Assembly: GCA_022828135.1 (NCBI GenBank)
Contig: JAJEJB010000015.1
Location: 81,484-145,483, forward strand
Reading direction: 5' to 3'
Length of the DNA stretch: 64,000 bases
Source of the DNA: Acidimicrobiia bacterium
GTDB taxonomy: Bacteria > Actinomycetota > Acidimicrobiia > Acidimicrobiales > Aldehydirespiratoraceae
Below, one piece after another: positions 8,470 to 60,447 of the stretch. A program made the translations under genes and the position numbers. The notes below the pieces were generated by a model. The model searched no databases. It was not told where the DNA came from and was given only the letters and a program-made list of their open reading frames with translations. How positions within the stretch are numbered: the stretch's first letter is position 1; every line of letters starts with the position of its first letter.

Positions 8470-8602
8470 CTCAGAGGCCCAGCGGACAGGTGCGCGAACC
8501 CGGCTCATACGGGCGGGGCCGTGGCCCGAGCGGCCCGTGAGCGCAGCGAACAAGAGCGGGAATGACCCCGCTGCAACATGACCGATTCCCACCTATCCGC
8601 GC
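8470..8602 (+). repeat. Dispersed repeat family, copy 1 (long form, about 133 nt), intergenic between two co-directional minus-strand genes
   Basis: It starts TCAGAGGCCCAGCGG. It carries the core GGCCGTGGCCCGAGCGGCCCGTGAGCGCAGCGAACAAGAGCGGG at about 8517-8560. The right arm ATGACCCCGCTGCAAC...CCTATCCGCGC is shared with the copy at 23677-23807. Confidence 0.8.
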
Positions 8603-8608
8603 TCGCCC

Positions 8609-10162
<1,554 letters not shown>

Positions 10163-10215
10163 GCCCCAAGTATCACGGCCCCCCACCGAAATTCCTGTAG
10201 TTGGGAACGGAGCTG

Positions 10216-11784
10216 TCAGATGGCCGTCGCGTGGCCCTCCCAGTAGGGGTCCCGCAGCTTGCGCTTGTAGAGCTTGCCGTTGGGGTCGCGGGGCATCCCG
10301 GTGGTGTAGTCGATCGAACGGGGCAGCTTCTGGCGGCCGATGCGATCGCGCAGCCACTCCAGGACCGCCTTGGTGGTGCCGTCGCCGGGCTCCCATCCCT
10401 CCCGCAGCTCGACCACCGCCTTGATCTCCTCGCCCGTGTCGGGGTTGGGCACCCCGAACACGGCCGCGTCGCCCACCGCGGGATGCTGCACCAGCTCGCC
10501 CTCGATCTCCGCGGGGTAGATGTTCACCCCGCCCACGATGATCATGTCGTTGGCCCGGTCGTTGAGGAACAGGTACCCGTCGGCGTCGAGGTAGCCGACG
10601 TCACCCACGGTGAAGAACCCTCGCAGGCGGCTGGCCGCGGTCTTGGCCTCGTCGCCCTTGTACTCGAAGACGGCCCCCGGCATCTTCATGTAAACCGTGC
10701 CCGACTCGCCCGGCGGCAGGTCGTTGCCGTCCTCGTCGACCACGATCACCTCGCAGCCGGGCCAGGCTTTGCCGACCGTGCCGGGCCGGTCCGTCCACTC
10801 CGCGGCCGACACCGATGTGCCCCCGCCCTCGGTGGCCGCGTAGTACTCCCAGATGGAGTCGCCCCACCACTCGATCATGCGTCGCTTGGTCTCGATCGGG
10901 CAGGGGGCGGCGGCATGCACCATGGCGCGCAGCGAGGACACGTCGTAGCCCGAGCGCACCTCGTCGGGTAGCTGCAGCAGCCGGTTGAACATGGTGGGCA
11001 CCATGTGCGAACTCGTGACCCGGTAGCGCTCGATGCGCTCCAGGGCGCCCTCGGCGGTCCAGCGGTCCATGAGCACCACGGTGTGGCCCAGATGCAACGA
11101 CATCGTGGTCCAGTTGTTGACCGCGGTGTGGTACAGCGGAGCCTGGGTGATCTGGACGTTGCCGTCGTGGGGCTTGGAGCCGAACAGCATCAGCAGCATT
11201 CCCGCGGTGGACGAGGCCTCGTCGGGGGGCCGGGGATCCAGTGCCCGCCGCACTCCCTTGGGCCGGCCGGTGGTGCCCGACGTGTAGAACATGAACGACC
11301 CAGTGGCCAGCTGCTCGTGATCGGGCCTGTCGCCGGTGTGGCCCGCAATGAGTTCGTCGAAGGGTCGGAACCCCTCGACCGGCCCGCCTACGCAGAACCG
11401 GTTCTCGGTGGGCACGACACAGCCGTCGAGCGCCTTGACCGCCTCCTCGGCGAAGCGCTCATGAACGATGAACGCCTTGGTCTCGGCGTCGTTGACGATG
11501 TAGTTGATCTCCGCGCCCACGAAGTGCCAGTTGATGGTGGTCACGTACAGGCCGCTCTGGTAGGCGGCCAGGCAGAGCGCGAGCTGCTCGAAGCAGTTGG
11601 GCAGCAGGGTCGTGACCTGATCGCCCTTGCCGAGCCCGGCGGCCCGCAGACTCCGGGAGATCCGGTTCGTGAGGGCCGCCAACTCGCCGAAGGTCAACTG
11701 GCTGTGCTCGGGGTCGACCACCGCCAGGAAGTCGGGATCGGCCTCGGCGATGTTCCACAGCCCCAGGGCGTCGGTGTTTGCCAT
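10216..11784 (-). CDS. AMP-dependent acyl-CoA synthetase/ligase
   Basis: AMP-binding signature YTSGTTGRPKG, plus GDVGYLDADGYLFLNDR and a C-terminal PRDPNGKLYKRKL motif. Confidence 0.85.
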   Translation of the reverse strand: MANTDALGLWNIAEADPDFLAVVDPEHSQLTFGELAALTNRISRSLRAAGLGKGDQVTTLLPNCFEQLALCLAAYQSGLYVTTINWHFVGAEINYIVNDAETKAFIVHERFAEEAVKALDGCVVPTENRFCVGGPVEGFRPFDELIAGHTGDRPDHEQLATGSFMFYTSGTTGRPKGVRRALDPRPPDEASSTAGMLLMLFGSKPHDGNVQITQAPLYHTAVNNWTTMSLHLGHTVVLMDRWTAEGALERIERYRVTSSHMVPTMFNRLLQLPDEVRSGYDVSSLRAMVHAAAPCPIETKRRMIEWWGDSIWEYYAATEGGGTSVSAAEWTDRPGTVGKAWPGCEVIVVDEDGNDLPPGESGTVYMKMPGAVFEYKGDEAKTAASRLRGFFTVGDVGYLDADGYLFLNDRANDMIIVGGVNIYPAEIEGELVQHPAVGDAAVFGVPNPDTGEEIKAVVELREGWEPGDGTTKAVLEWLRDRIGRQKLPRSIDYTTGMPRDPNGKLYKRKLRDPYWEGHATAI

Positions 11785-22040: not shown

Positions 22041-22982
22041 TCAGGCGCCGGCGGCGGCCTCGAAGGCCTCCACCCAGGGCGCGAGATACTCGGCCGCGGC
22101 CTGAACCCCGGCAGGCGGCTGCAGTCCCGCGCGGAAACCGATGCGGAAATCGGTGACCCCGGCCTCGACCAGACCCCGCACCGCGTCCATGGTGGGACCG
22201 ACCTGCGGGTTGCCGTCGCGGTCGTAGACGAGCGGTAGCGCTCCGGCGACCTCGATGCCGGCTGGGTCCTTGCCCGCGCCGGCCACCGCCTCGCGCATCT
22301 TGGGAATGCCCGAGGCGACGTCGGCCGCGTCGGGTCCCCACGGGATCCAGCCCGAGCCGAAGCGGGCCAGGCGAGCCATCGAGCGCCGGTTGACAGTGCC
22401 GCTGACCCATACCGGCACGGTTCCGTCGGTCGGCTTTGGCATCTGATGCATGCCCTCGAAGCTCAGCTCCTCGGTGCTGACCGAGGCCCGCTCCTGGGTC
22501 CACAACGCGTGGCATACCTCCAGGGTGTGGTCGAGCAGGCGGCCCCGCCCGGCGAAGTCCAGGCCCGCGGCCTCGTACTCCTCCTGCTGCCAGCCCACGC
22601 CCACCCCAAGATCCAGTCGGCCACCGGTGAGCACGTCGATGGTGGCCGCCGTCTTGGCCAGCACGATGGGACGCCGTAACGCGGCCAGCAGCACCATCGG
22701 GCACAGCCGCACCCTCTCGGTCAATGCACCGACCATGGCCAGCACGGTCAGCGGCTCCAGCCAGGCCCCGTCGGGGCCGGTGGGCTGGCGGCCGCCGGCC
22801 AGCCCGCCCCGGGCCGGATCGGCGTAGCGGTCGAGGCGCTCGCCGTAGACCACGTGGTCCGACACCACCAGACGGCCGATGCCGGCCCGGTCGGCCGCGA
22901 CGGCCAGGTCGAAGAGACGCTGCCACTCTCCGGGCGGCTCGGCCGAGAAGTTGACGAGGTGCATCGACAGGCAGGGCTTCAT
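22041..22982 (-). CDS. Luciferase-like monooxygenase family, F420-dependent oxidoreductase type
   Basis: LLM motifs (GRLDLGVGVGW, VWVSG, RLARFGSGWIPW). The ATG at 22982 (MKPCLSMHLVNF...) was chosen over the ORF-track start at 23237. Confidence 0.8.
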   Translation of the reverse strand: MKPCLSMHLVNFSAEPPGEWQRLFDLAVAADRAGIGRLVVSDHVVYGERLDRYADPARGGLAGGRQPTGPDGAWLEPLTVLAMVGALTERVRLCPMVLLAALRRPIVLAKTAATIDVLTGGRLDLGVGVGWQQEEYEAAGLDFAGRGRLLDHTLEVCHALWTQERASVSTEELSFEGMHQMPKPTDGTVPVWVSGTVNRRSMARLARFGSGWIPWGPDAADVASGIPKMREAVAGAGKDPAGIEVAGALPLVYDRDGNPQVGPTMDAVRGLVEAGVTDFRIGFRAGLQPPAGVQAAAEYLAPWVEAFEAAAGA

Positions 22983-23029
22983 GAGGCACTCTCCTCCATG
23001 ACCAGGCGAATCGACAGGCAGGGCTTCAT
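22979..23029 (-). other. 16-codon mini-ORF (MKPCLSIRLVMEESAS) bridging the LigD-pol stop and the LLM start
   Basis: Its ATG overlaps the LigD-pol TGA (ATGA). Its TGA overlaps the LLM ATG (ATGA). Its first 6 codons are a 20-nt exact duplicate of the LLM 5' end. Translation is unproven. Confidence 0.3.
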
Positions 23030-24192
23030 TGAGTTCCGTCCTCCTGTGGGTCGCGGGCCGCCCGGCTCGGCGCCACCCGGGGCGGCTCGTTGGGCATCTT
23101 CGGGTACACCGGCGGCCAGGGGGCGTCCATGAGGCCGGAGTCCATGTCCCGAGCGTGCCACTCCAGCAGCGGCTCCAGCGAGGCGGGCACGCCGTCCATG
23201 GCCGCCCACGGGTCCCCGACTTCGGCCACCCGGGCACCGACGGTGGCGATGGTCAGGTCCTCGGGCTGCACGTCGTCCAGTTCGTCCCAGCTGATCGGCG
23301 CCGATACCTGCGCACCGACCCGGGGGCGGGCCGACCAGGCACCGAACACCGTCTTGTGGGGGGCGTTCTGGTTGAAGTCCACGAACACCCGCCGGCCCCG
23401 CTCCTCCTTCCACCAGGCGTCGGTGATCAGGTCGGGCCGGCGCCGGGCCATCTCCCGGGCCAGGGCCACCGCAGCGGCCCGGACGTCGTAGGAGTCCCAG
23501 CGGGGCGCCAACCGGGAGTAGACGTGCAGTCCCCGCCGTCCCGAGGTCTTGATGTAGACGGTCATCTGCAACTCGTCGAAGGCGGCCTTCACCTCGCTGG
23601 CCGCCTCCCGCACCTGGTCGAAGCCGACGCCGGGCTGGGGATCCAGGTCGATGCGAAGCTCGTCGACTGCGGGACTGCCCGGATAGGCGGGAGCCGGTCG
23701 CGTCGCAGCGGTGTCATCCCCGCTCTTGTTCGCTGCGCTCACGGGCCGCTCGGGCCACGGCCTCGCCGTTCCAAGCCGTTCGCGTCCGCCTGTTCGCTCG
23801 GCCTCAAGGTCCGGGGCGTCGGCCCGGTAGGGCCAGACATGGAATCCGAGGCAGCCCATGTTGACGGCCCACACCACATGGGCGAGGTCGGTCGCCACCA
23901 TGGCGTTGGACAGGGTGCCGTTGGGGGTGCTCACCACTGTGGTCGTGAGCCACTCGGGGGCGCCCTTGGGAACTCGCTTCTGAAAGAAGGACTTGCCCCC
24001 CGCTCCGTCCGGGTAGCGCTCGAGCAGCACGGGCCGGCCCCCCATGGCCCGCAGCAGGGGCTCGGCCACCGACATGTAGTACTCGACGAGGTCGAGCTTG
24101 GTCTCGCCCCTGGTCGAGAAGAAGACCTTGCCGGGATTGGTGACCCGCACCTCGTGGCCATCCACCTCCAGCATCACGACGTCGGAAGCCAC
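23026..24192 (-). CDS. Stand-alone LigD-type NHEJ polymerase/primase domain protein, carrying an in-frame repeat-derived insertion of about 47 aa
   Basis: LigD-Pol motifs (VRVTNPGKVFF, LERYPDG, FFQKR, ELRIDLDPQPG, VYIKTSGRRGLHVY). Residues about 129-175 are encoded by the dispersed repeat. Confidence 0.8.
   Translation of the reverse strand: MASDVVMLEVDGHEVRVTNPGKVFFSTRGETKLDLVEYYMSVAEPLLRAMGGRPVLLERYPDGAGGKSFFQKRVPKGAPEWLTTTVVSTPNGTLSNAMVATDLAHVVWAVNMGCLGFHVWPYRADAPDLEAERTGGRERLGTARPWPERPVSAANKSGDDTAATRPAPAYPGSPAVDELRIDLDPQPGVGFDQVREAASEVKAAFDELQMTVYIKTSGRRGLHVYSRLAPRWDSYDVRAAAVALAREMARRRPDLITDAWWKEERGRRVFVDFNQNAPHKTVFGAWSARPRVGAQVSAPISWDELDDVQPEDLTIATVGARVAEVGDPWAAMDGVPASLEPLLEWHARDMDSGLMDAPWPPVYPKMPNEPPRVAPSRAARDPQEDGTQ
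23677..23807 (-). repeat. Dispersed repeat family, copy 2 (long form), inside the LigD-pol CDS and in frame
   Basis: The core is at 23719-23765 (reverse complement). The left terminus is TTGAGGCCGAGCG. The internal 29-nt segment and the right arm are homologous to copy 1. Confidence 0.8.
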
Positions 24193-28151: not shown

Positions 28152-29374
28152 GAAGACGCGCTCTGGCGGTGACGGCCGCGCTGGCGGTCTCCTCCACGCT
28201 GGTGTGGGGGAATCCGGTGGCCACGGCCCAGCAGGCCGTGCCGGACCGTGAGATCGAGGCACGCATCGGCGCACGTTGGCATGTCGACGGGCGCGTCGAG
28301 TTCGGGTTGCAAGTGCGCGCCGACACTGGCGAATGGGGCGAGATCCAGCAGCCGGCCAGGCGCTTCATGCCAGCGGGCCGCCGGAGCTGGCTGTCGACCT
28401 CGCGCTGGCTGTCGACCTCGCCGATCGCCCTCCGGGGCGCCGAGGCCCGCGTCGTCGCACGGCGACTCGCCGACGGCCGGGTCGAGGCCACGCTGAGGGT
28501 GCGCATCGAACGTGGGGAGTGGAGCGAGCGCTTGACCGAGCGGCGACGGTTGCTGACCGGGGGCGGAGAGATCGGCGTCTGGTATTGGTCGTCACCGGTG
28601 AGGCTGGCCGCACAGTGGGCCCAGATCGTCGCGTTCTACGGCCATCCCGGGGTTCCCTCCATGGGGGTGCTCGGCCATGGAACGCCGGCGGAAGTGGCCG
28701 AAGAGATCGCCGAATGGACAGAACGCTACGACCGGCTGAACGGACCCCGCGGCACCGTCGGGGCCTACCACCTCATCACCGGTGTCGCCCAGGCCAATCC
28801 GACATCGGACGGCACCTGGCTCTACCGGCTCCCCCACGACCGCATCGCCACCTATGTCGAGGCAGCCCGGGAGCACGGAATGCTCCTGTTCATCGACAAC
28901 CAGATCGGCTGGAGCGATCCCCTCTCGGAGGTGAAGCTCCTCGAGGACTTCCTGCGGGAGCCGTTCGTCCATATGGCGTTGGACCCGGAGTTCGCGACCC
29001 AGCCGCTGGGGGTCCGTCCGGGGCGGGCCATCGGCGGCATCACCGGCGAGCAGGTGAACGAGGTGCTGCTCTACCTCTCGGAACTGGTGGAGGAGGAGGG
29101 GTTGCCGCCCAAGATCCTGATGGTGCACCAGTTCGCCGACCGCATGCTGCACAACCGGGATGTCATCGTGACGCAACCCGGCGTCGAGCTGTCGATCGAC
29201 ATGGACGGCATCGGGAGCCCCCGGGCCAAGCTGTACGGCTACGAGCTCTACGCCATCACCGAACCCTCGCAACGTCCGACCTTCAAGCTGTTCTTCGACC
29301 AGGACGATCCACTGATAAGCCCCGAAGGGGTCCTGGCGATGGACCCGGTGCCCGACGTGATCATCTACCAGTAA
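28148..29374 (+). CDS. Secreted hypothetical protein: two N-terminal modules of about 40 aa (DGRVE...GEW) plus a C-terminal domain of unknown function
   Basis: Signal peptide MRRRALAVTAALAVSSTLVWGNPVATAQQ. The GTG start overlaps the upstream stop (GTGA). It contains an 18-bp perfect tandem duplication at 28386-28421. Confidence 0.6.
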   Translation: MRRRALAVTAALAVSSTLVWGNPVATAQQAVPDREIEARIGARWHVDGRVEFGLQVRADTGEWGEIQQPARRFMPAGRRSWLSTSRWLSTSPIALRGAEARVVARRLADGRVEATLRVRIERGEWSERLTERRRLLTGGGEIGVWYWSSPVRLAAQWAQIVAFYGHPGVPSMGVLGHGTPAEVAEEIAEWTERYDRLNGPRGTVGAYHLITGVAQANPTSDGTWLYRLPHDRIATYVEAAREHGMLLFIDNQIGWSDPLSEVKLLEDFLREPFVHMALDPEFATQPLGVRPGRAIGGITGEQVNEVLLYLSELVEEEGLPPKILMVHQFADRMLHNRDVIVTQPGVELSIDMDGIGSPRAKLYGYELYAITEPSQRPTFKLFFDQDDPLISPEGVLAMDPVPDVIIYQ

Positions 29375-29472
29375 GGGGCAGTCAGAGGCCGAGCGGAGCG
29401 AGGCCGTGGCCCGAGCGGCCCGTGAGCGCAGCGAACAAGAGCGGGCATGGCACCGCCGCACCGCGAGGCGGC
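29374..29472 (+). repeat. Dispersed repeat family, copy 3 (short form), bracketed by the 14-nt direct repeat ATCATCTACCAGTA
   Basis: The core is at 29399-29445. The left terminus TCAGAGGCCGAGCGG is at 29382. The flanking direct repeats are at 29360-29373 and 29473-29486. Confidence 0.85.
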
Positions 29473-29501
29473 ATCATCTACCAGTAGCGGCGCGCGTGCT
29501 C

Positions 29502-30293
29502 TCAGGTCAGCAGCAGTCCGATCTGTCGGGAGGTGGCGACCAGGGCGCCGGTCGAGTCCCATAGAGAGCCCGACTCGATCATCCGGCCGTCGTGAAGGTC
29601 GTGGCTCTCCTGGCGGACCTGGAGCCATCCCGACGCCGGCACCCTGCGGGCGTGGACGGTCAACTCGATGGTCGGCACCCAGCCGATGAAGCCCAGCAGG
29701 GGATACAGCGAGGGCGGCAGGGCGTCGGCGAAGAAGGGCAGAGCCATCGTGGACGGCGCCGAGCCGTCGTTGAAGCGGATCCAGCCGTCGATGAGCGCCT
29801 GATCGCTGCCTCCCGCGGGAGCATGGTCGGGATGCACGTGCACGTCCACCCGGGAGAGGATCGGCAGCTCCACGCCCTGCTCGAGGCTGCCCCGATGGAC
29901 GCACTGCTGCACCGGCGGGATCGCCGGCGGCGCCTCGGATATCTCCAAGCCGCGGCTGTTGCCCGACGGCAGGTCCGAGAAGGCGGCCAGCACCTCGAGC
30001 CGCTGCCTGCCCTCCTGCCAGAGTGATCCTCGCAGCGTGCTCACGGCGCGGCCGGCGCGGACGACCGAGGCCCGCACCTCGGCGTCGGTGTCGCCCTTGC
30101 TCGGACGGAGAAAGTGTGTGGTCACCGAGATCGGATCGGCCTGAGGTACCAGCGAGCGCATGGCTCTCAGCACCGATGTGAGCGCGTAGCCGCCGTTGCT
30201 GTTGTCCGCGATGTTCCAGCCGGCCGACAAGCGAGTGGCCCACCGGCCCTCGCCCACCGGTTCAACCGCCGTCTCGGCGTCGAACTGACTCAT
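29502..30293 (-). CDS. Thioesterase-family protein (double hot-dog, acyl-CoA thioesterase-like)
   Basis: A 263-aa product from the ATG at 30293 (MSQFDAETAVEPVG...). It resembles TesB-related thioesterase-superfamily proteins. The ORF-track 546-aa form is an over-extension. Confidence 0.6.
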   Translation of the reverse strand: MSQFDAETAVEPVGEGRWATRLSAGWNIADNSNGGYALTSVLRAMRSLVPQADPISVTTHFLRPSKGDTDAEVRASVVRAGRAVSTLRGSLWQEGRQRLEVLAAFSDLPSGNSRGLEISEAPPAIPPVQQCVHRGSLEQGVELPILSRVDVHVHPDHAPAGGSDQALIDGWIRFNDGSAPSTMALPFFADALPPSLYPLLGFIGWVPTIELTVHARRVPASGWLQVRQESHDLHDGRMIESGSLWDSTGALVATSRQIGLLLT

Positions 30294-58779: not shown

Positions 58780-59476
58780 ACCCTCCGGACGGCAGCTTCC
58801 ACCGGTGGGCGAGATCGACATCCTGCGCTGGGCCGAGAGCCTGGCCGGTATAGCCCAGACCGGCCTGGGCTTCACCGAGAGCCGCTACGAGCAGGAGCGC
58901 TTCGAGGAGGTGCTGGCAGTGGCCGCCGACATCCGGGCCCACAGTGCGGTCGGGATCGACGCGGACGAGCAGGTGCAGGACTGGCTCGGCGGCGTCGGCT
59001 CCGGCATCGCCGGATACGTCACGCCCAAGATCACCGTCGGTGCCATCGTCGGCGATGACGATGGCCGGATACTGCTTGTGCAGCGAGCCGACTCCGGCTG
59101 GTGGCTCTATCCCACCGGTTGGTCCGACGTGGGCTACTCGCCGTCGGAGGTCGCCGTCAAGGAGGTCCGCGAGGAGACCGGGATCGACTGCGAGGTAGTC
59201 CGCCCCATCGCCATCCTCGACGGGATGCGCCTCGGCTTCCACCGGGTGCCGCTGGTGTCGATCGTGTTCCACTGCCGCAGCCTGGGCGGGGATCTGAAGG
59301 CCCACCCGCTGGAGTGCTCAGACGTGGGCTTCTTCGCCGAGGGCGAGCTGCCCGAGCGCACCGCCCGCCCCGAGCTGTGGGCCCCGCACGCCTTCAGCGC
59401 CATCCGGGGCGAGCAGGTGGAAGTGCTCTTCGACCATCCCCGCAGTCCGCCTTGGCGGGGCGAGCCCGAAACCTGA
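58772..59476 (+). CDS. NUDIX hydrolase with a Nudix N-terminal helical domain
   Basis: Nudix box GWSDVGYSPSEVAVKEVREETGI. N-terminal GIAQTGLGFTESRYEQERFEEV. The GTG start overlaps the end of hemQ. Confidence 0.8.
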   Translation: MSEPSGRQLPPVGEIDILRWAESLAGIAQTGLGFTESRYEQERFEEVLAVAADIRAHSAVGIDADEQVQDWLGGVGSGIAGYVTPKITVGAIVGDDDGRILLVQRADSGWWLYPTGWSDVGYSPSEVAVKEVREETGIDCEVVRPIAILDGMRLGFHRVPLVSIVFHCRSLGGDLKAHPLECSDVGFFAEGELPERTARPELWAPHAFSAIRGEQVEVLFDHPRSPPWRGEPET

Positions 59477-59556
59477 GAGAGCGAGCTAGTTCTTCCCGCT
59501 CTTGTTCGCTGCGCTCACGGGCCGCTCGGGCCACGGCCTCGCAAGCTCGGCCTCTA
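59477..59556 (-). repeat. Dispersed repeat family, copy 4 (short form), filling the whole gap between convergent genes
   Basis: The core is at 59495-59541 (reverse complement). The left terminus TAGAGGCCGAGC contains the TAG stop of the PAC2 gene (59554-59556). Confidence 0.8.
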
Positions 59557-60447
59557 GCCGCCTTCGCGTAGGAACTTCTCGACCTCGGCCACCAGCCGGT
59601 CGGGGTCGTCGCTGAGGGAGATGTCGTCGCTGTCCTCATCCTGCCCCGCGTCCCAGGCTCTCTCGAGGCGGGCCACATACTCCGCGGTCTCATCGTCCTC
59701 GGCCACGATCCTGGTGATCTCCCGCTCGTAGGTCTTGGCCCGCTGCTCCAGATCGAAGGTCGGCACCGGCGCCTTCATCAGGGCACAAACCCGGTTGACC
59801 AGCGCCAGCGCAGCCTTGGGGGACGGCGCGGCCGGCATGTACGACGGCACCGCAGACCAGAACGACGCCGTGCGATAGCCGGCGTCGCGGCAGGCCGACG
59901 ACAGCACGCCCACGATCCCGGTGGGTCCCTCGTAGGTGGACGGCGTGAGGCCGAGCTCGGCTCGAAGCTCCTCGTCGTCGGTGGAGCCGTACACCTCCAC
60001 GTCGCGGCTGTGGGGCACCTCGGCGAGCAGCGCACCGAGAGTGACTATCCGCTCCACGCCCAGCATCCCGGCCAGAGAGATCAGCTGGTGGGTGAACGTC
60101 CGCCATCTCAGTTGCGGCTCCGTGCCGATCAGCACGACCGCGTCCGTGCCCGGGTCGTCCAGATGGGCCACCTGCACCTCGTTCACCGGCCATTTGATGC
60201 TCCGCGCTTTGCTCTCGTCCAGGTGAACGGTCGGACGGGCCGCTGTGAAGTCGAAGAAGGGCTCTGGATCTATCTCCGCCACCGGCACGCACCCCCAGCG
60301 ACCGGCCAGGTGACCGGCCGCGGTGGTGGCCGCGTCGCCGGCGTCGTTCCAGCCCTCGAAGGCCGCGATCAGGGTGGGGCGTTTCAGCTCGGGCCGCGGC
60401 CCGGACCACAAGACATGCTCTGGCTCGATTGACACGGGCGACACCAT
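59554..60447 (-). CDS. PAC2 (proteasome assembly chaperone 2-like) family protein
   Basis: The characteristic LIAAFEGWNDAGDAATTA motif and the typical size (297 aa). Confidence 0.8.
   Translation of the reverse strand: MVSPVSIEPEHVLWSGPRPELKRPTLIAAFEGWNDAGDAATTAAGHLAGRWGCVPVAEIDPEPFFDFTAARPTVHLDESKARSIKWPVNEVQVAHLDDPGTDAVVLIGTEPQLRWRTFTHQLISLAGMLGVERIVTLGALLAEVPHSRDVEVYGSTDDEELRAELGLTPSTYEGPTGIVGVLSSACRDAGYRTASFWSAVPSYMPAAPSPKAALALVNRVCALMKAPVPTFDLEQRAKTYEREITRIVAEDDETAEYVARLERAWDAGQDEDSDDISLSDDPDRLVAEVEKFLREGG

What the first reader, a model, noticed from the sequence alone, without database searches (positions are those of the whole stretch)
23677..23807. Repeat element inserted in frame inside the LigD NHEJ polymerase gene, next to the catalytic D-x-D motif
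Residues about 129-175 of the 388-aa LigD-Pol ORF read LEAERTGGRERLGTARPWPERPVSAANKSGDDTAATRPAPAYPGSPA. They are encoded entirely by a long-form copy of the dispersed repeat, in reverse orientation.

- The insertion is about 141 nt, a multiple of 3, and has no stop in that frame.
- It sits between the conserved GFHVWPYRADAPD segment and VDELRIDLDPQPG, which carries the metal-binding aspartates.
- So either a repeat has been domesticated as a surface loop of a DNA-repair polymerase, or the gene is a cryptic pseudogene that still reads open.
- The same element-relative frame (ARPWPERPVSAANKSG) is also open in the intergenic copy at 29.4 kb.
- No Ku or ligase gene is nearby in this window.
Basis: partly seen in the sequence, partly recalled or inferred. 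Interest (0 to 1): 0.8.

Follow-up and report, generated by a model that had tools for sequence, protein, structure and literature searches.

The report
Repeat element translated inside repair polymerase
A ~140-base dispersed repeat of sponge-associated Acidimicrobiia has landed in frame inside a Prim-PolC-type DNA-repair polymerase gene, where it appears to be tolerated as a floppy 46-residue loop, much like the palindromic elements known in Rickettsia genes.

Summary
Window 23667-23807 (- strand) is a long-form copy of a dispersed repeat. It sits in frame in a 388-aa LigD-like Prim-Pol gene, six residues before the catalytic D-x-D strand.

- **Absent from close orthologues.** Syntenic orthologues 94-96% identical outside the insert lack it, as do 78 of 80 more distant relatives (the other two could not be scored).
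- **The gene.** It is a stand-alone Prim-PolC type (excision-repair gap filler), not the polymerase domain of a LigD ligase. This fits the absence of Ku and ligase nearby.
- **The repeat.** It is an apparently undescribed MITE-like family: imperfect inverted arms and a nearly invariant ~48-nt core. It occurs in at least 119 loci of Acidimicrobiia MAGs. It is also in frame in a hydantoinase B gene and an XdhC gene.
- **Selection.** Filled alleles are under purifying selection (dN/dS 0.14-0.33). The insert evolves neutrally (dN/dS about 1) and is predicted to be disordered.
- **History.** At least 17 distinct filled proteins exist, carrying two element lineages. Filled alleles are not monophyletic. 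Some relatives keep a 15-nt deletion footprint.

Best reading: a tolerated passenger insertion, segregating as a filled/empty/footprint polymorphism. It is neither a pseudogene nor a domesticated loop. This is a new example of the kind known from Rickettsia palindromic elements.

The parts
23026..24192 (-). Stand-alone Prim-PolC-type (LigD-like AEP primase-polymerase) gene, 388 aa, carrying the insertion
   Evidence: ORF list. Pfam LigD_Prim-Pol, E 3.7e-85, in two stretches. PDB 6sa0/5op0 Prim-PolC, E 1e-96. Foldseek TM-score 0.86-0.87 normalised to the target. Conserved synteny: SKI, DHquinase_II, PrimPol, Bac_luciferase.
23667..23807 (-). In-frame long-form copy of the dispersed repeat. It is 141 nt including a possible 3-nt target duplication, a net gain of 138 nt. 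It encodes residues about 129-176.
   Evidence: Inverted-repeat match to 8474-8618. Junction comparison with empty orthologues. Alignment with 44 other copies.
23719..23766 (-). Nearly invariant core of the repeat. It encodes ARPWPERPVSAANKSG and contains a GGCCG...CGGCC hairpin.
   Evidence: 48 nt are identical to 59495-59542 and complementary to 29398-29445. Alignment columns 43-88 are invariant or nearly so in 45 copies. The hairpin pairs are invariant.
23641..23649 (-). Codons D182-L183-D184, the metal-binding D-x-D of AEP motif I, 6 residues after the insert ends
   Evidence: These columns are invariant in 100 homologues. They align to DLD of Prim-PolC. The catalytic role is taken from the Prim-Pol literature (PMC7442782).
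8472..8612 (+). Intergenic long-form copy, 141 nt. It fills the gap between two genes, and its 3' end (CTCAG) overlaps the stop codon of the minus-strand gene 8609..10396.
29383..29505 (+). Intergenic copy with a shortened 5' arm, lying between convergent genes. Their stop codons are TAA at 29372-29374 and TCA at 29502-29504.
59473..59556 (-). Short-form copy, 84 nt. Its first three bases (TAG) are the stop codon of the gene 59554..60447.

Best explanation
**What it is.** A non-autonomous, MITE-like repeat of about 135-141 nt has inserted into codon 129 of a Prim-PolC-type repair polymerase gene. The repeat has imperfect inverted terminal arms around an almost invariant ~48-nt core. It normally sits at gene ends, abutting stop codons.

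**Why the gene still reads open.** The copy lies in the orientation and frame that has no stop codon in this copy. It is therefore translated as 46 extra residues.

**What it does to the protein.** The residues form an unstructured loop between beta-strand 114-119 and the D-x-D catalytic strand 176-185. The enzyme tolerates this loop:
- The gene stays under purifying selection.
- The insert itself drifts neutrally, constrained only to stay open and a multiple of three.

**History.**
- The filled state is one allele of a long-lived filled/empty/footprint polymorphism in a clade of sponge-associated Acidimicrobiia related to Ca. Aldehydirespirator.
- Two element lineages (A and B) occupy the same site.
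- Recombination has shuffled alleles among lineages.
- At least one lineage has lost the element by an imprecise deletion that left 15 nt behind.

**Shown.**
- The insertion, its absence in orthologues, and membership of the repeat family.
- The selection pattern.
- The deletion footprint.
- In-frame copies in two other genes.

**Inferred.**
- Translation of the insert and retained enzyme activity.
- Spread of the element by transposition.
- Recombination as the cause of the patchy distribution.
For: **The insertion and its repeat identity.**
- Shown: **Absence from relatives.**
- Syntenic orthologues 94-96% identical outside the insert lack it.
- 78 of 80 JGI metagenome relatives have the canonical spacing. 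The other two could not be scored. None of the 80 loci carries the element core.

**Not an assembly artefact.**
- The window's exact protein is recorded on 3 contigs.
- At least 17 distinct filled proteins exist.
- Contig lengths tie three of them to complete chromosomes in the genome scan: OZ241894.1, OZ220743.1 and OZ242297.1.

**Selection.**
- Flanks have dN/dS of 0.14-0.33 in all pairs. Examples: P0001-P0005 0.155, P0004-P0030 0.142.
- The insert has dN/dS of 0.77-1.77.
- In type B alleles, amino-acid diversity is 0.142 in the insert and 0.030 in the flanks.
- Catalytic and loop motifs are invariant.

**Structure.**
- In the AF2 model, residues 121-174 have pLDDT below 50 and no secondary structure. 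The flanking strands are confident.
- The fold matches Prim-PolC, TM-score 0.86-0.87 normalised to the target.

**Deletion footprint.**
- P0007-9 read TACCGGGCC|GGCAGTCCCGCAGTC|GAT. The 15 nt are identical to the 3' end of the window element, and the DAPDF codons are missing.
- P0014 has the same remnant with 3 substitutions.

**Family behaviour.**
- The core occurs in at least 119 loci, all in Acidimicrobiia MAGs.
- The arms are paired in 66% of cells against 30-48% in slid controls, with some covariation.
- A canonical copy folds with z = -4.3.
- A Hydantoinase_B gene carries an in-frame copy. Its PDB alignment is contiguous (809 to 810) across a 55-aa insert.
- An XdhC gene carries one in its interdomain linker.

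**Recombination.**
- The gene is a mosaic. P0006 is 4.4% from P0001 in the left half and 7.9% in the right half.
- P0003-P0006 differ by 9.6% on the left and 5.9% on the right.
Against: - There is no direct evidence that the 388-aa protein is made or active.
- The insert ends only 6 residues before the catalytic D-x-D strand. I could not inspect coordinates to confirm that the loop points away from DNA.
- Low pLDDT suggests disorder but does not prove it.
- Splitting the distances onto branches by hand gives a somewhat higher ratio on the P0001 branch (about 0.22) than on its empty sister P0005 (about 0.09). The counts are very small.
- One type B allele (L211) is split by a 2-nt insertion just upstream of the element. 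It could be a true pseudogene or an error in a contig whose name indicates about 4x coverage.
- Filled alleles were found through intact protein calls, so disrupted ones would be under-sampled.
- The core stays nearly unchanged inside the gene. P0001 and P0002 show 0 differences at a flank dS of 0.225. Pure neutral decay does not explain this.
- No target-site duplication is unambiguous, and no partner transposase was found.
Confidence: 0.78

Rival explanations
1. Domesticated loop. The element-encoded peptide, or its conserved core ARPWPERPVSAANKSG, has gained a function in the polymerase. It could serve as a partner-binding or regulatory loop, and selection would keep it for that reason.
For: - The insert keeps exactly 46 residues in at least 17 distinct proteins across several flank backgrounds.
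- The core stays far more conserved than the arms even inside the gene.
- For Rickettsia palindromic elements, compatibility of the insert with protein fold and function has been predicted (PMC10969869).
Against: - The insert has dN/dS of about 1.
- Of the 5 core substitutions seen in P0003 and P0004, 4 change the amino acid.
- Insert diversity is 5 times that of the flanks.
- No structure is predicted for the insert.
- Close relatives function without it, and some deleted it.
- The same core is equally conserved in intergenic copies, so its conservation is a property of the DNA element, not of the peptide.
Confidence: 0.08
2. Cryptic pseudogene. The insertion inactivated the polymerase, and the frame is open only because decay has not yet produced a stop in this GC-rich sequence.
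For: - The insertion is immediately upstream of the catalytic strand.
- 44% of intergenic copies of this type are open in the same frame by chance.
- One split allele exists (L211).
Against: - Flank dN/dS is 0.14-0.33 for filled alleles, indistinguishable from empty ones.
- Synonymous divergence among filled alleles reaches 0.33, yet there are no frameshifts or stops.
- All motif residues are invariant.
- Type B alleles have kept conserved flanks while the insert diverged.
Confidence: 0.07
3. Recurrent, site-directed insertion. The element family actively targets this exact position, so the filled alleles arose several times independently and did not spread by recombination.
For: - Filled alleles are not monophyletic on the flank tree.
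- Two element lineages occupy the same position.
- The odd left arm of type A has its nearest relative in an intergenic copy (L049, 84%). The left arm of type B matches the family consensus (89%).
- The flanks of P0004 resemble its empty sister P0030 right up to the junction.
- The left arms of P0001 and P0004 differ by 4%, while the adjacent gene sequence differs by 9-11%.
Against: - Intragenic mosaicism shows that recombination among these lineages is real.
- No conserved target motif was identified at other insertion sites.
- Gene conversion from paralogous copies could also replace the arms in place.
- Selection for tolerated in-frame positions filters what can be seen.
Confidence: 0.3
4. 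Intervening sequence. The element is removed after transcription or translation, like an intron or an intein, so the mature enzyme lacks it.
For: Canonical copies fold into a stable multi-hairpin structure.
Against: - No Rfam family matches, even at E of 1 or less.
- The in-gene copy folds no better than shuffled sequence, z = +1.0.
- No intein or other Pfam domain was found in the protein.
- All intact filled alleles found keep a multiple of three and an open frame. Splicing at the RNA level would not require this.
Confidence: 0.02

Closest known systems
Rickettsia palindromic elements (RPEs)
   Same: Both are dispersed palindromic repeats of about 140-150 bp. Both are found repeatedly in frame inside unrelated, still-functional genes. 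Both add about 45-50 residues, and the inserts are predicted to be compatible with the protein fold (PMC10969869). This family also occurs in intergenic regions.
   Different: - The host phylum is unrelated (Actinomycetota, Acidimicrobiia, about 70% G+C). Sequence similarity to RPEs was not tested.
- This family has an asymmetric, nearly invariant ~48-nt core between variable arms.
- Most copies here abut stop codons in intergenic regions. Only about 3 of roughly 120 sampled loci are inside genes. For RPEs the review reports nearly half inside ORFs.
- Here the same site carries two element lineages plus a deletion footprint.
Mycobacterial Prim-PolC (M. smegmatis; PDB 5OP0, 6SA0, 6SA1)
   Same: - Best match by sequence and by fold.
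- Stand-alone AEP Prim-Pol.
- D-x-D, Loop 1 and Loop 2 (WWKEERG) are conserved.
- The C-terminal Loop 3 segment (PWPPVYPKMPNEPPRVAPS) is present. It defines the short-gap excision-repair subfamily (PMC7442782, PMC5663958).
   Different: - About 43-44% identity.
- It carries the 46-residue insert at the position of chain residue 131, which is outside Loops 1-3.
- The Loop 3 locating-pin residue N321 appears to align with V362 (by my count from the alignment).
- No LigC gene is adjacent; the neighbours are shikimate-pathway and luciferase-like genes.
Bacterial MITEs with intragenic in-frame copies (for example ERIC; see review PMC10969869)
   Same: Small size, no transposase, terminal inverted repeats, many dispersed copies, and occasional in-frame fusions with host ORFs.
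   Different: No unambiguous target-site duplication and no partner insertion sequence were identified here. Modular forms exist: long, short, arms only, and a 36-unit tandem array of the core.
REP / REPIN elements
   Same: Hairpin-forming repeats concentrated just after stop codons, often between convergent genes.
   Different: REPs are 20-40-nt palindromes mobilised by RAYT transposases (stated from memory). This element is longer and has a non-palindromic conserved core. RAYT association was not tested.

Membership tests
Prim-PolC subfamily of LigD-like AEP primase-polymerases | LigD_Prim-Pol catalytic domain with the AEP motifs (D-x-D, sGxGxH, hD) | tested here: met
   Pfam PF21686, E 3.7e-85. 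D182, D184, G218, G221, H223 and D272 are invariant in 100 homologues. The residues align to Prim-PolC.
Prim-PolC subfamily of LigD-like AEP primase-polymerases | C-terminal Loop 3 extension, which defines the short-gap-filling subfamily (PMC7442782) | tested here: met
   Query residues 173-381 align to 6sa0 residues 131-340 and include DAPWPPVYPKMPNEPPRVAPS opposite DLPYPPNYPKMPGEPPRVQPS. The segment is invariant in 100 homologues.
Prim-PolC subfamily of LigD-like AEP primase-polymerases | Stand-alone protein, not fused to ligase or nuclease domains | tested here: met
   388 aa with a single domain family. Orthologues are 334-346 aa.
Prim-PolC subfamily of LigD-like AEP primase-polymerases | Genomic or functional partnership with LigC | tested here: not met
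   No ligase is among the called genes within 10 kb or in the orthologous loci. A partner elsewhere in the genome was not searched for.
Prim-PolC subfamily of LigD-like AEP primase-polymerases | Ribonucleotide gap filling on 1-3-nt gaps | not testable with these tools
   Biochemical assay needed.
LigD (multidomain NHEJ ligase) polymerase domain | Fusion to, or operon with, an ATP-dependent ligase domain and Ku | tested here: not met
   Single-domain ORF. No Ku or ligase within 10 kb. Identity to the LigD PolDom structures 2iru and 2fao is only 25-29%, against 43-44% to Prim-PolC.
MITE-like / RPE-like palindromic repeat | Small size, no coding capacity for a transposase, many dispersed copies | tested here: met
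   84-141 nt. Four copies in 64 kb. At least 119 loci across many Acidimicrobiia MAGs.
MITE-like / RPE-like palindromic repeat | Terminal inverted repeats or an overall palindromic fold | tested here: met
   A 22-pair terminal helix is paired in 66% of cells, against 30-48% when slid. Pairs 14/138 and 15/137 covary between GC and AU. L036 folds at -80 kcal/mol, z = -4.3. RNAalifold on its own did not predict this helix.
MITE-like / RPE-like palindromic repeat | Target-site duplication | tested here: inconclusive
   A 3-nt NAG-like duplication is possible. P0003 has CGG on both sides, and window copies have CTCAG and TCAG at both ends. It would account for 141 = 138 + 3. It is not consistent in all copies.
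MITE-like / RPE-like palindromic repeat | Partner autonomous element with the same ends | tested here: inconclusive
   A search of the held loci for inverted arm pairs 0.4-4 kb apart found only neighbouring small elements. Whole genomes were not available.
MITE-like / RPE-like palindromic repeat | Recurrent in-frame residence in unrelated genes (the RPE hallmark) | tested here: met
   Prim-PolC (this window), Hydantoinase_B in L096, and XdhC in L070.
Any curated RNA family (Rfam 15) | Covariance-model match | tested here: not met
   No match at the gathering threshold in the window. No match at E of 1 or less in three element-rich loci.

The most novel reading that the evidence does not exclude
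The repeat is an undescribed mobile element family whose invariant ~48-nt core is a functional module, such as a recognition site or a structured nucleic acid. The family would home repeatedly to this one position of the Prim-PolC gene, either by sequence-directed insertion or by core-mediated gene conversion. The result would be a balanced filled/empty/footprint polymorphism in a DNA-repair polymerase of sponge symbionts, possibly modulating repair activity.
Probability: 0.15. Interest if true: 0.65.

Novelty: new member of a known kind. Interest (0 to 1): 0.45.

Why it matters
- It extends the Rickettsia-style phenomenon of selfish palindromic DNA translated inside working genes. The new setting is a distant, GC-rich phylum and symbionts of marine sponges.
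- It identifies a repeat family that appears to be uncatalogued: no Rfam match and no literature hit for its core.
- The natural series of filled, empty and footprint alleles shows that a 46-residue disordered loop can be tolerated six residues from an AEP polymerase active site. That is a ready-made experiment on insertion tolerance.
- For annotation, such genes should not be called pseudogenes or 'DNA ligase D'. Short ORFs called on intergenic copies of the repeat are spurious.

Tried and rejected
- **Peptide search.** Searching the 47-aa peptide against the protein database returned only 28 short ORFs of 30-79 aa. These appear to be spurious gene calls on copies of the element. It did not return the known filled genes, so it says nothing about how many genes carry the element.
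- **RNAalifold on 45 copies.** It predicted only the invariant core hairpin. The terminal helix had to be specified by hand.
- **Rfam.** Nothing at gathering or relaxed thresholds.
- **Literature search for the core sequence.** No paper.
- **Search for an autonomous partner among held loci.** None found. It did turn up an arms-only mini-form.
- **Frame openness as evidence of selection.** 22 of 50 intergenic copies are open in the same frame. Filled alleles were ascertained through intact proteins, so I drew no inference.
- **JGI metagenome scan.** No further filled alleles. It is useful only as evidence that the insert is absent from relatives.
- **Split allele L211.** I did not count it as proof of pseudogenisation, because the contig name indicates about 4x coverage.
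- **A single ancient insertion inherited vertically.** Rejected for three reasons:
  - Filled alleles nest among empty sisters.
  - The arms of types A and B belong to different subfamilies.
  - The left arms of P0001 and P0004 are far less diverged than their flanks, while the right arms are far more diverged.
- **Precise excision as the origin of empty alleles.** Rejected as unlikely. Empty alleles keep the F/Y-A codons shared with distant outgroups. The one clear loss is imprecise.
Full report
**1.

The minus-strand ORF 23026..24192 encodes 388 aa. Residues 129-176 read LEAERTGGRERLGTARPWPERPVSAANKSGDDTAATRPAPAYPGSPAV. This stretch is a copy of a repeat found three more times in the window:
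- 8474-8618: 145 nt, 80%, opposite orientation.
- 29398-29466: 69 nt, 93%.
- 59495-59542: 48 nt, 100%.

A 32-nt core is exact in all four copies and appeared 0 times in 100 shuffles. Pfam LigD_Prim-Pol matches in two stretches, and the second resumes at profile position 100 at residue 176. Against M. smegmatis Prim-PolC (6sa0), the two aligned halves abut at chain residue 131, so the insert has no counterpart.

**2. The gene.**

The best sequence and fold matches are Prim-PolC structures (5op0, 6sa0, 6sa1):
- Sequence match E of about 1e-96.
- TM-score 0.86-0.87 normalised to the target.
- 43-44% identity.

LigD polymerase domains are well behind at 25-29% identity. The protein is a single domain. 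It keeps the C-terminal Loop 3 segment that defines the short-gap excision-repair subfamily (PMC7442782, PMC5663958). So it is a stand-alone Prim-PolC-type enzyme, not the polymerase domain of an NHEJ ligase. Ku and ligase are absent within 10 kb, which is then unremarkable. LigC is not adjacent either, unlike the mycobacterial arrangement as I recall it.

The neighbourhood is conserved in all orthologous loci fetched: AMP-binding (opposite strand), shikimate kinase, dehydroquinase II, Prim-Pol, luciferase-like, and a 514-aa unknown.

**3. The insert is absent from close orthologues.**

- Of the 120 best homologues, four 90%-identity clusters are 388 aa and carry a 46-residue insert at the same position.
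- Nearly all the others are 325-363 aa and none has an insert at this site. The two longer ones carry a C-terminal extension and an internal duplication.
- These include syntenic proteins 94-96% identical to the window protein outside the insert.
- Empty alleles read GAC TTC GCC GAC GAG (D F A D E).
- Filled alleles read GAC C[TT/CA/CG/TG]GAGGCC ... G(T/C)C GAC GAG, a net gain of 138 nt.
- In 80 further relatives from JGI metagenomes, 78 have the canonical 21-residue spacing. The other two could not be scored. None of the 80 loci contains the element core.
- Several empty alleles come from genomes that do carry the repeat family. P0010's 3,536,242-nt contig matches OZ241903.1 in length, and that chromosome holds copies L007, L041 and L061.

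**4. The repeat family.**

The 32-nt core occurs in at least 119 loci, all in Acidimicrobiia MAGs. These include Ca. Aldehydirespirator, Ca. Poriferisodalis and bins from sponge metagenomes.

Long forms of about 141 nt have this layout:
- A 5' arm, (N)AGAGGCCGAGCGGATAGGCG...
- A nearly invariant core, GCGAGGCCGTGGCCCGAGCGGCCCGTGAGCGCAGCGAACAAGAGCGGG.
- A variable segment.
- A 3' arm, ...CACCTATCCGCGCNNGCTCTNAG.

Evidence on the fold:
- The arms are imperfect inverted repeats. 66% of cells are paired against 30-48% in slid controls, with GC/AU covariation at two pairs.
- A canonical copy folds into a long terminal stem with three hairpins, z = -4.3.
- The in-gene copy folds no better than shuffles, z = +1.0. 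This is consistent with a decayed relic.

Other forms exist: short forms, an arms-only mini-form, and a 36-unit tandem array of a 46-nt core unit.

In the window, the intergenic copies abut or overlap stop codons of the flanking genes. No Rfam family matches. No paper contains the core sequence.

**5. In-frame residence is a property of the family.**

About 120 sampled loci were scanned for long open frames that span a core. Apart from the Prim-PolC copies, two of the frames tested proved to be real genes:
- A Hydantoinase_B gene in L096. The PDB alignment is contiguous (809 to 810) across a 55-aa element-encoded insert.
- An XdhC gene in L070. The element lies between the XdhC_CoxI and XdhC_C domains.

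With Prim-PolC, that makes three unrelated genes. This is the behaviour described for Rickettsia palindromic elements and, less often, for other MITEs (PMC10969869).

**6. Is the filled gene alive?**

- Nei-Gojobori dN/dS on the gene outside the insert is 0.14-0.33 for every pair. This includes filled against nearest empty: P0001-P0005 0.155 and P0004-P0030 0.142.
- Inside the insert it is 0.77-1.77.
- Among nine type B filled proteins, mean pairwise amino-acid difference is 0.142 in the insert and 0.030 in the flanks.
- All AEP motifs and Loops 1-3 are invariant.
- All intact filled proteins keep exactly 46 inserted residues.
- In the AlphaFold2 model, residues 121-174 have pLDDT below 50 and no secondary structure. 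They lie between confident strands 114-119 and 176-185.

So the gene is under purifying selection and the insert is not constrained at the amino-acid level.

Caveats:
- There is no expression or activity evidence.
- One split allele sits on a contig whose name indicates about 4x coverage.
- Ascertainment favours intact proteins.

**7. History.**

- Filled alleles are not monophyletic on the flank tree. P0001 pairs with empty P0005, P0003 with empty P0006, and P0004 with empty P0030.
- Two element lineages occupy the site.
  - Type A (the window, P0149-152, P0004) has an unusual left arm. Its nearest relative is an intergenic copy, L049 (84%).
  - Type B (P0002, P0003 and others) matches the family consensus (89%).
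- The left arms of P0001 and P0004 are 96% identical, while the adjacent gene sequence differs by 9-11%. Their right arms are only 66% identical. This points to exchange with a breakpoint in the conserved core.
- The gene is itself a mosaic among lineages.
- P0007-9 carry TACCGGGCC|GGCAGTCCCGCAGTC|GAT. The 15 nt are identical to the 3' end of the window element, and the DAPDF codons are gone. P0014 has the same remnant with three changes. This is an imprecise deletion of a filled allele.
- P0008 differs from the intact-empty P0010 by a dS of only 0.029.

Simple vertical inheritance of one insertion is therefore rejected. I cannot decide between two remaining readings:
- Recurrent site-directed insertion or conversion.
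- One or two insertions spread by short-tract recombination.

I give recurrence about 0.3.

**8. Comparison and verdict.**

The case works like a Rickettsia palindromic element insertion. A selfish palindromic repeat is translated as a surface excursion of a working enzyme. It is not a member of the RPE families. The host phylum is unrelated, and the architecture differs, with an asymmetric conserved core. Sequence similarity to RPEs was not tested.

I file it as a new member of a known kind, in a repeat family that appears undescribed. The two-lineage, same-site polymorphism with a deletion footprint, next to an active site, gives it moderate interest. The unexplained conservation of the core inside the gene, and the site recurrence, are the parts worth following.

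Noticed in passing
L108:2358-4000: A tandem array of 36 identical 46-nt units. Each unit is the repeat core plus GCAAACACAACCCC, and there are no spacers. The core can evidently amplify head to tail. Smaller duplications of the core occur in L096, L119, L094 and L047.
   Followed up: partly
window 8472-8612, 29383-29505, 59473-59556: The intergenic copies fill the gaps between genes exactly. Their ends (TAG/CAG at 5', CTCAG at 3') coincide with or adjoin the stop codons of the flanking genes, including convergent pairs. This suggests a stop-codon-like (TNAG) target or a role at gene ends.
   Followed up: partly
window 29360-29373 and 29471-29484: A 14-nt direct repeat, ATCATCTACCAGTA, flanks most of the 29.4-kb copy. 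The first unit supplies the last codons and the stop of the upstream gene. The second lies in the element's 3' arm. Similar long direct repeats flank copies in L116 (31 nt), L008 (14 nt), L110 and L113. They are not explained by a simple 3-nt duplication.
   Followed up: no
window 22952-23044: A tandem duplication of about 47 nt (78% identical) covers the start region of the downstream luciferase-like gene (MKPCLS...). In relatives such as L126 and L128 the Prim-Pol and luciferase-like gene calls overlap or abut. In the window, and apparently in the P0005 locus (same 43-nt gap), the two genes are separated by about 43 nt, which the duplication would explain.
   Followed up: partly
L075:4959-5005: An arms-only mini-form of the element (TAGAGGCCGAGCGGATCGGAGGTCCGGGCGCGCTCTCAG) lies directly after a short-form copy. 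44 of 142 occurrences of the 5'-arm 11-mer in the held loci have no core within 130 nt, so the family is broader than the core-bearing set.
   Followed up: no
P0166 (ENA contig of 156,693 nt): One type B filled Prim-Pol allele is fused in frame to the downstream luciferase-like gene, giving a 696-aa product. This implies loss of the Prim-Pol stop codon in that assembly.
   Followed up: no
P0121-P0148: Public gene calls of 30-79 aa with no Pfam domain appear to be translations of copies of this repeat. They are likely spurious ORFs.
   Followed up: no
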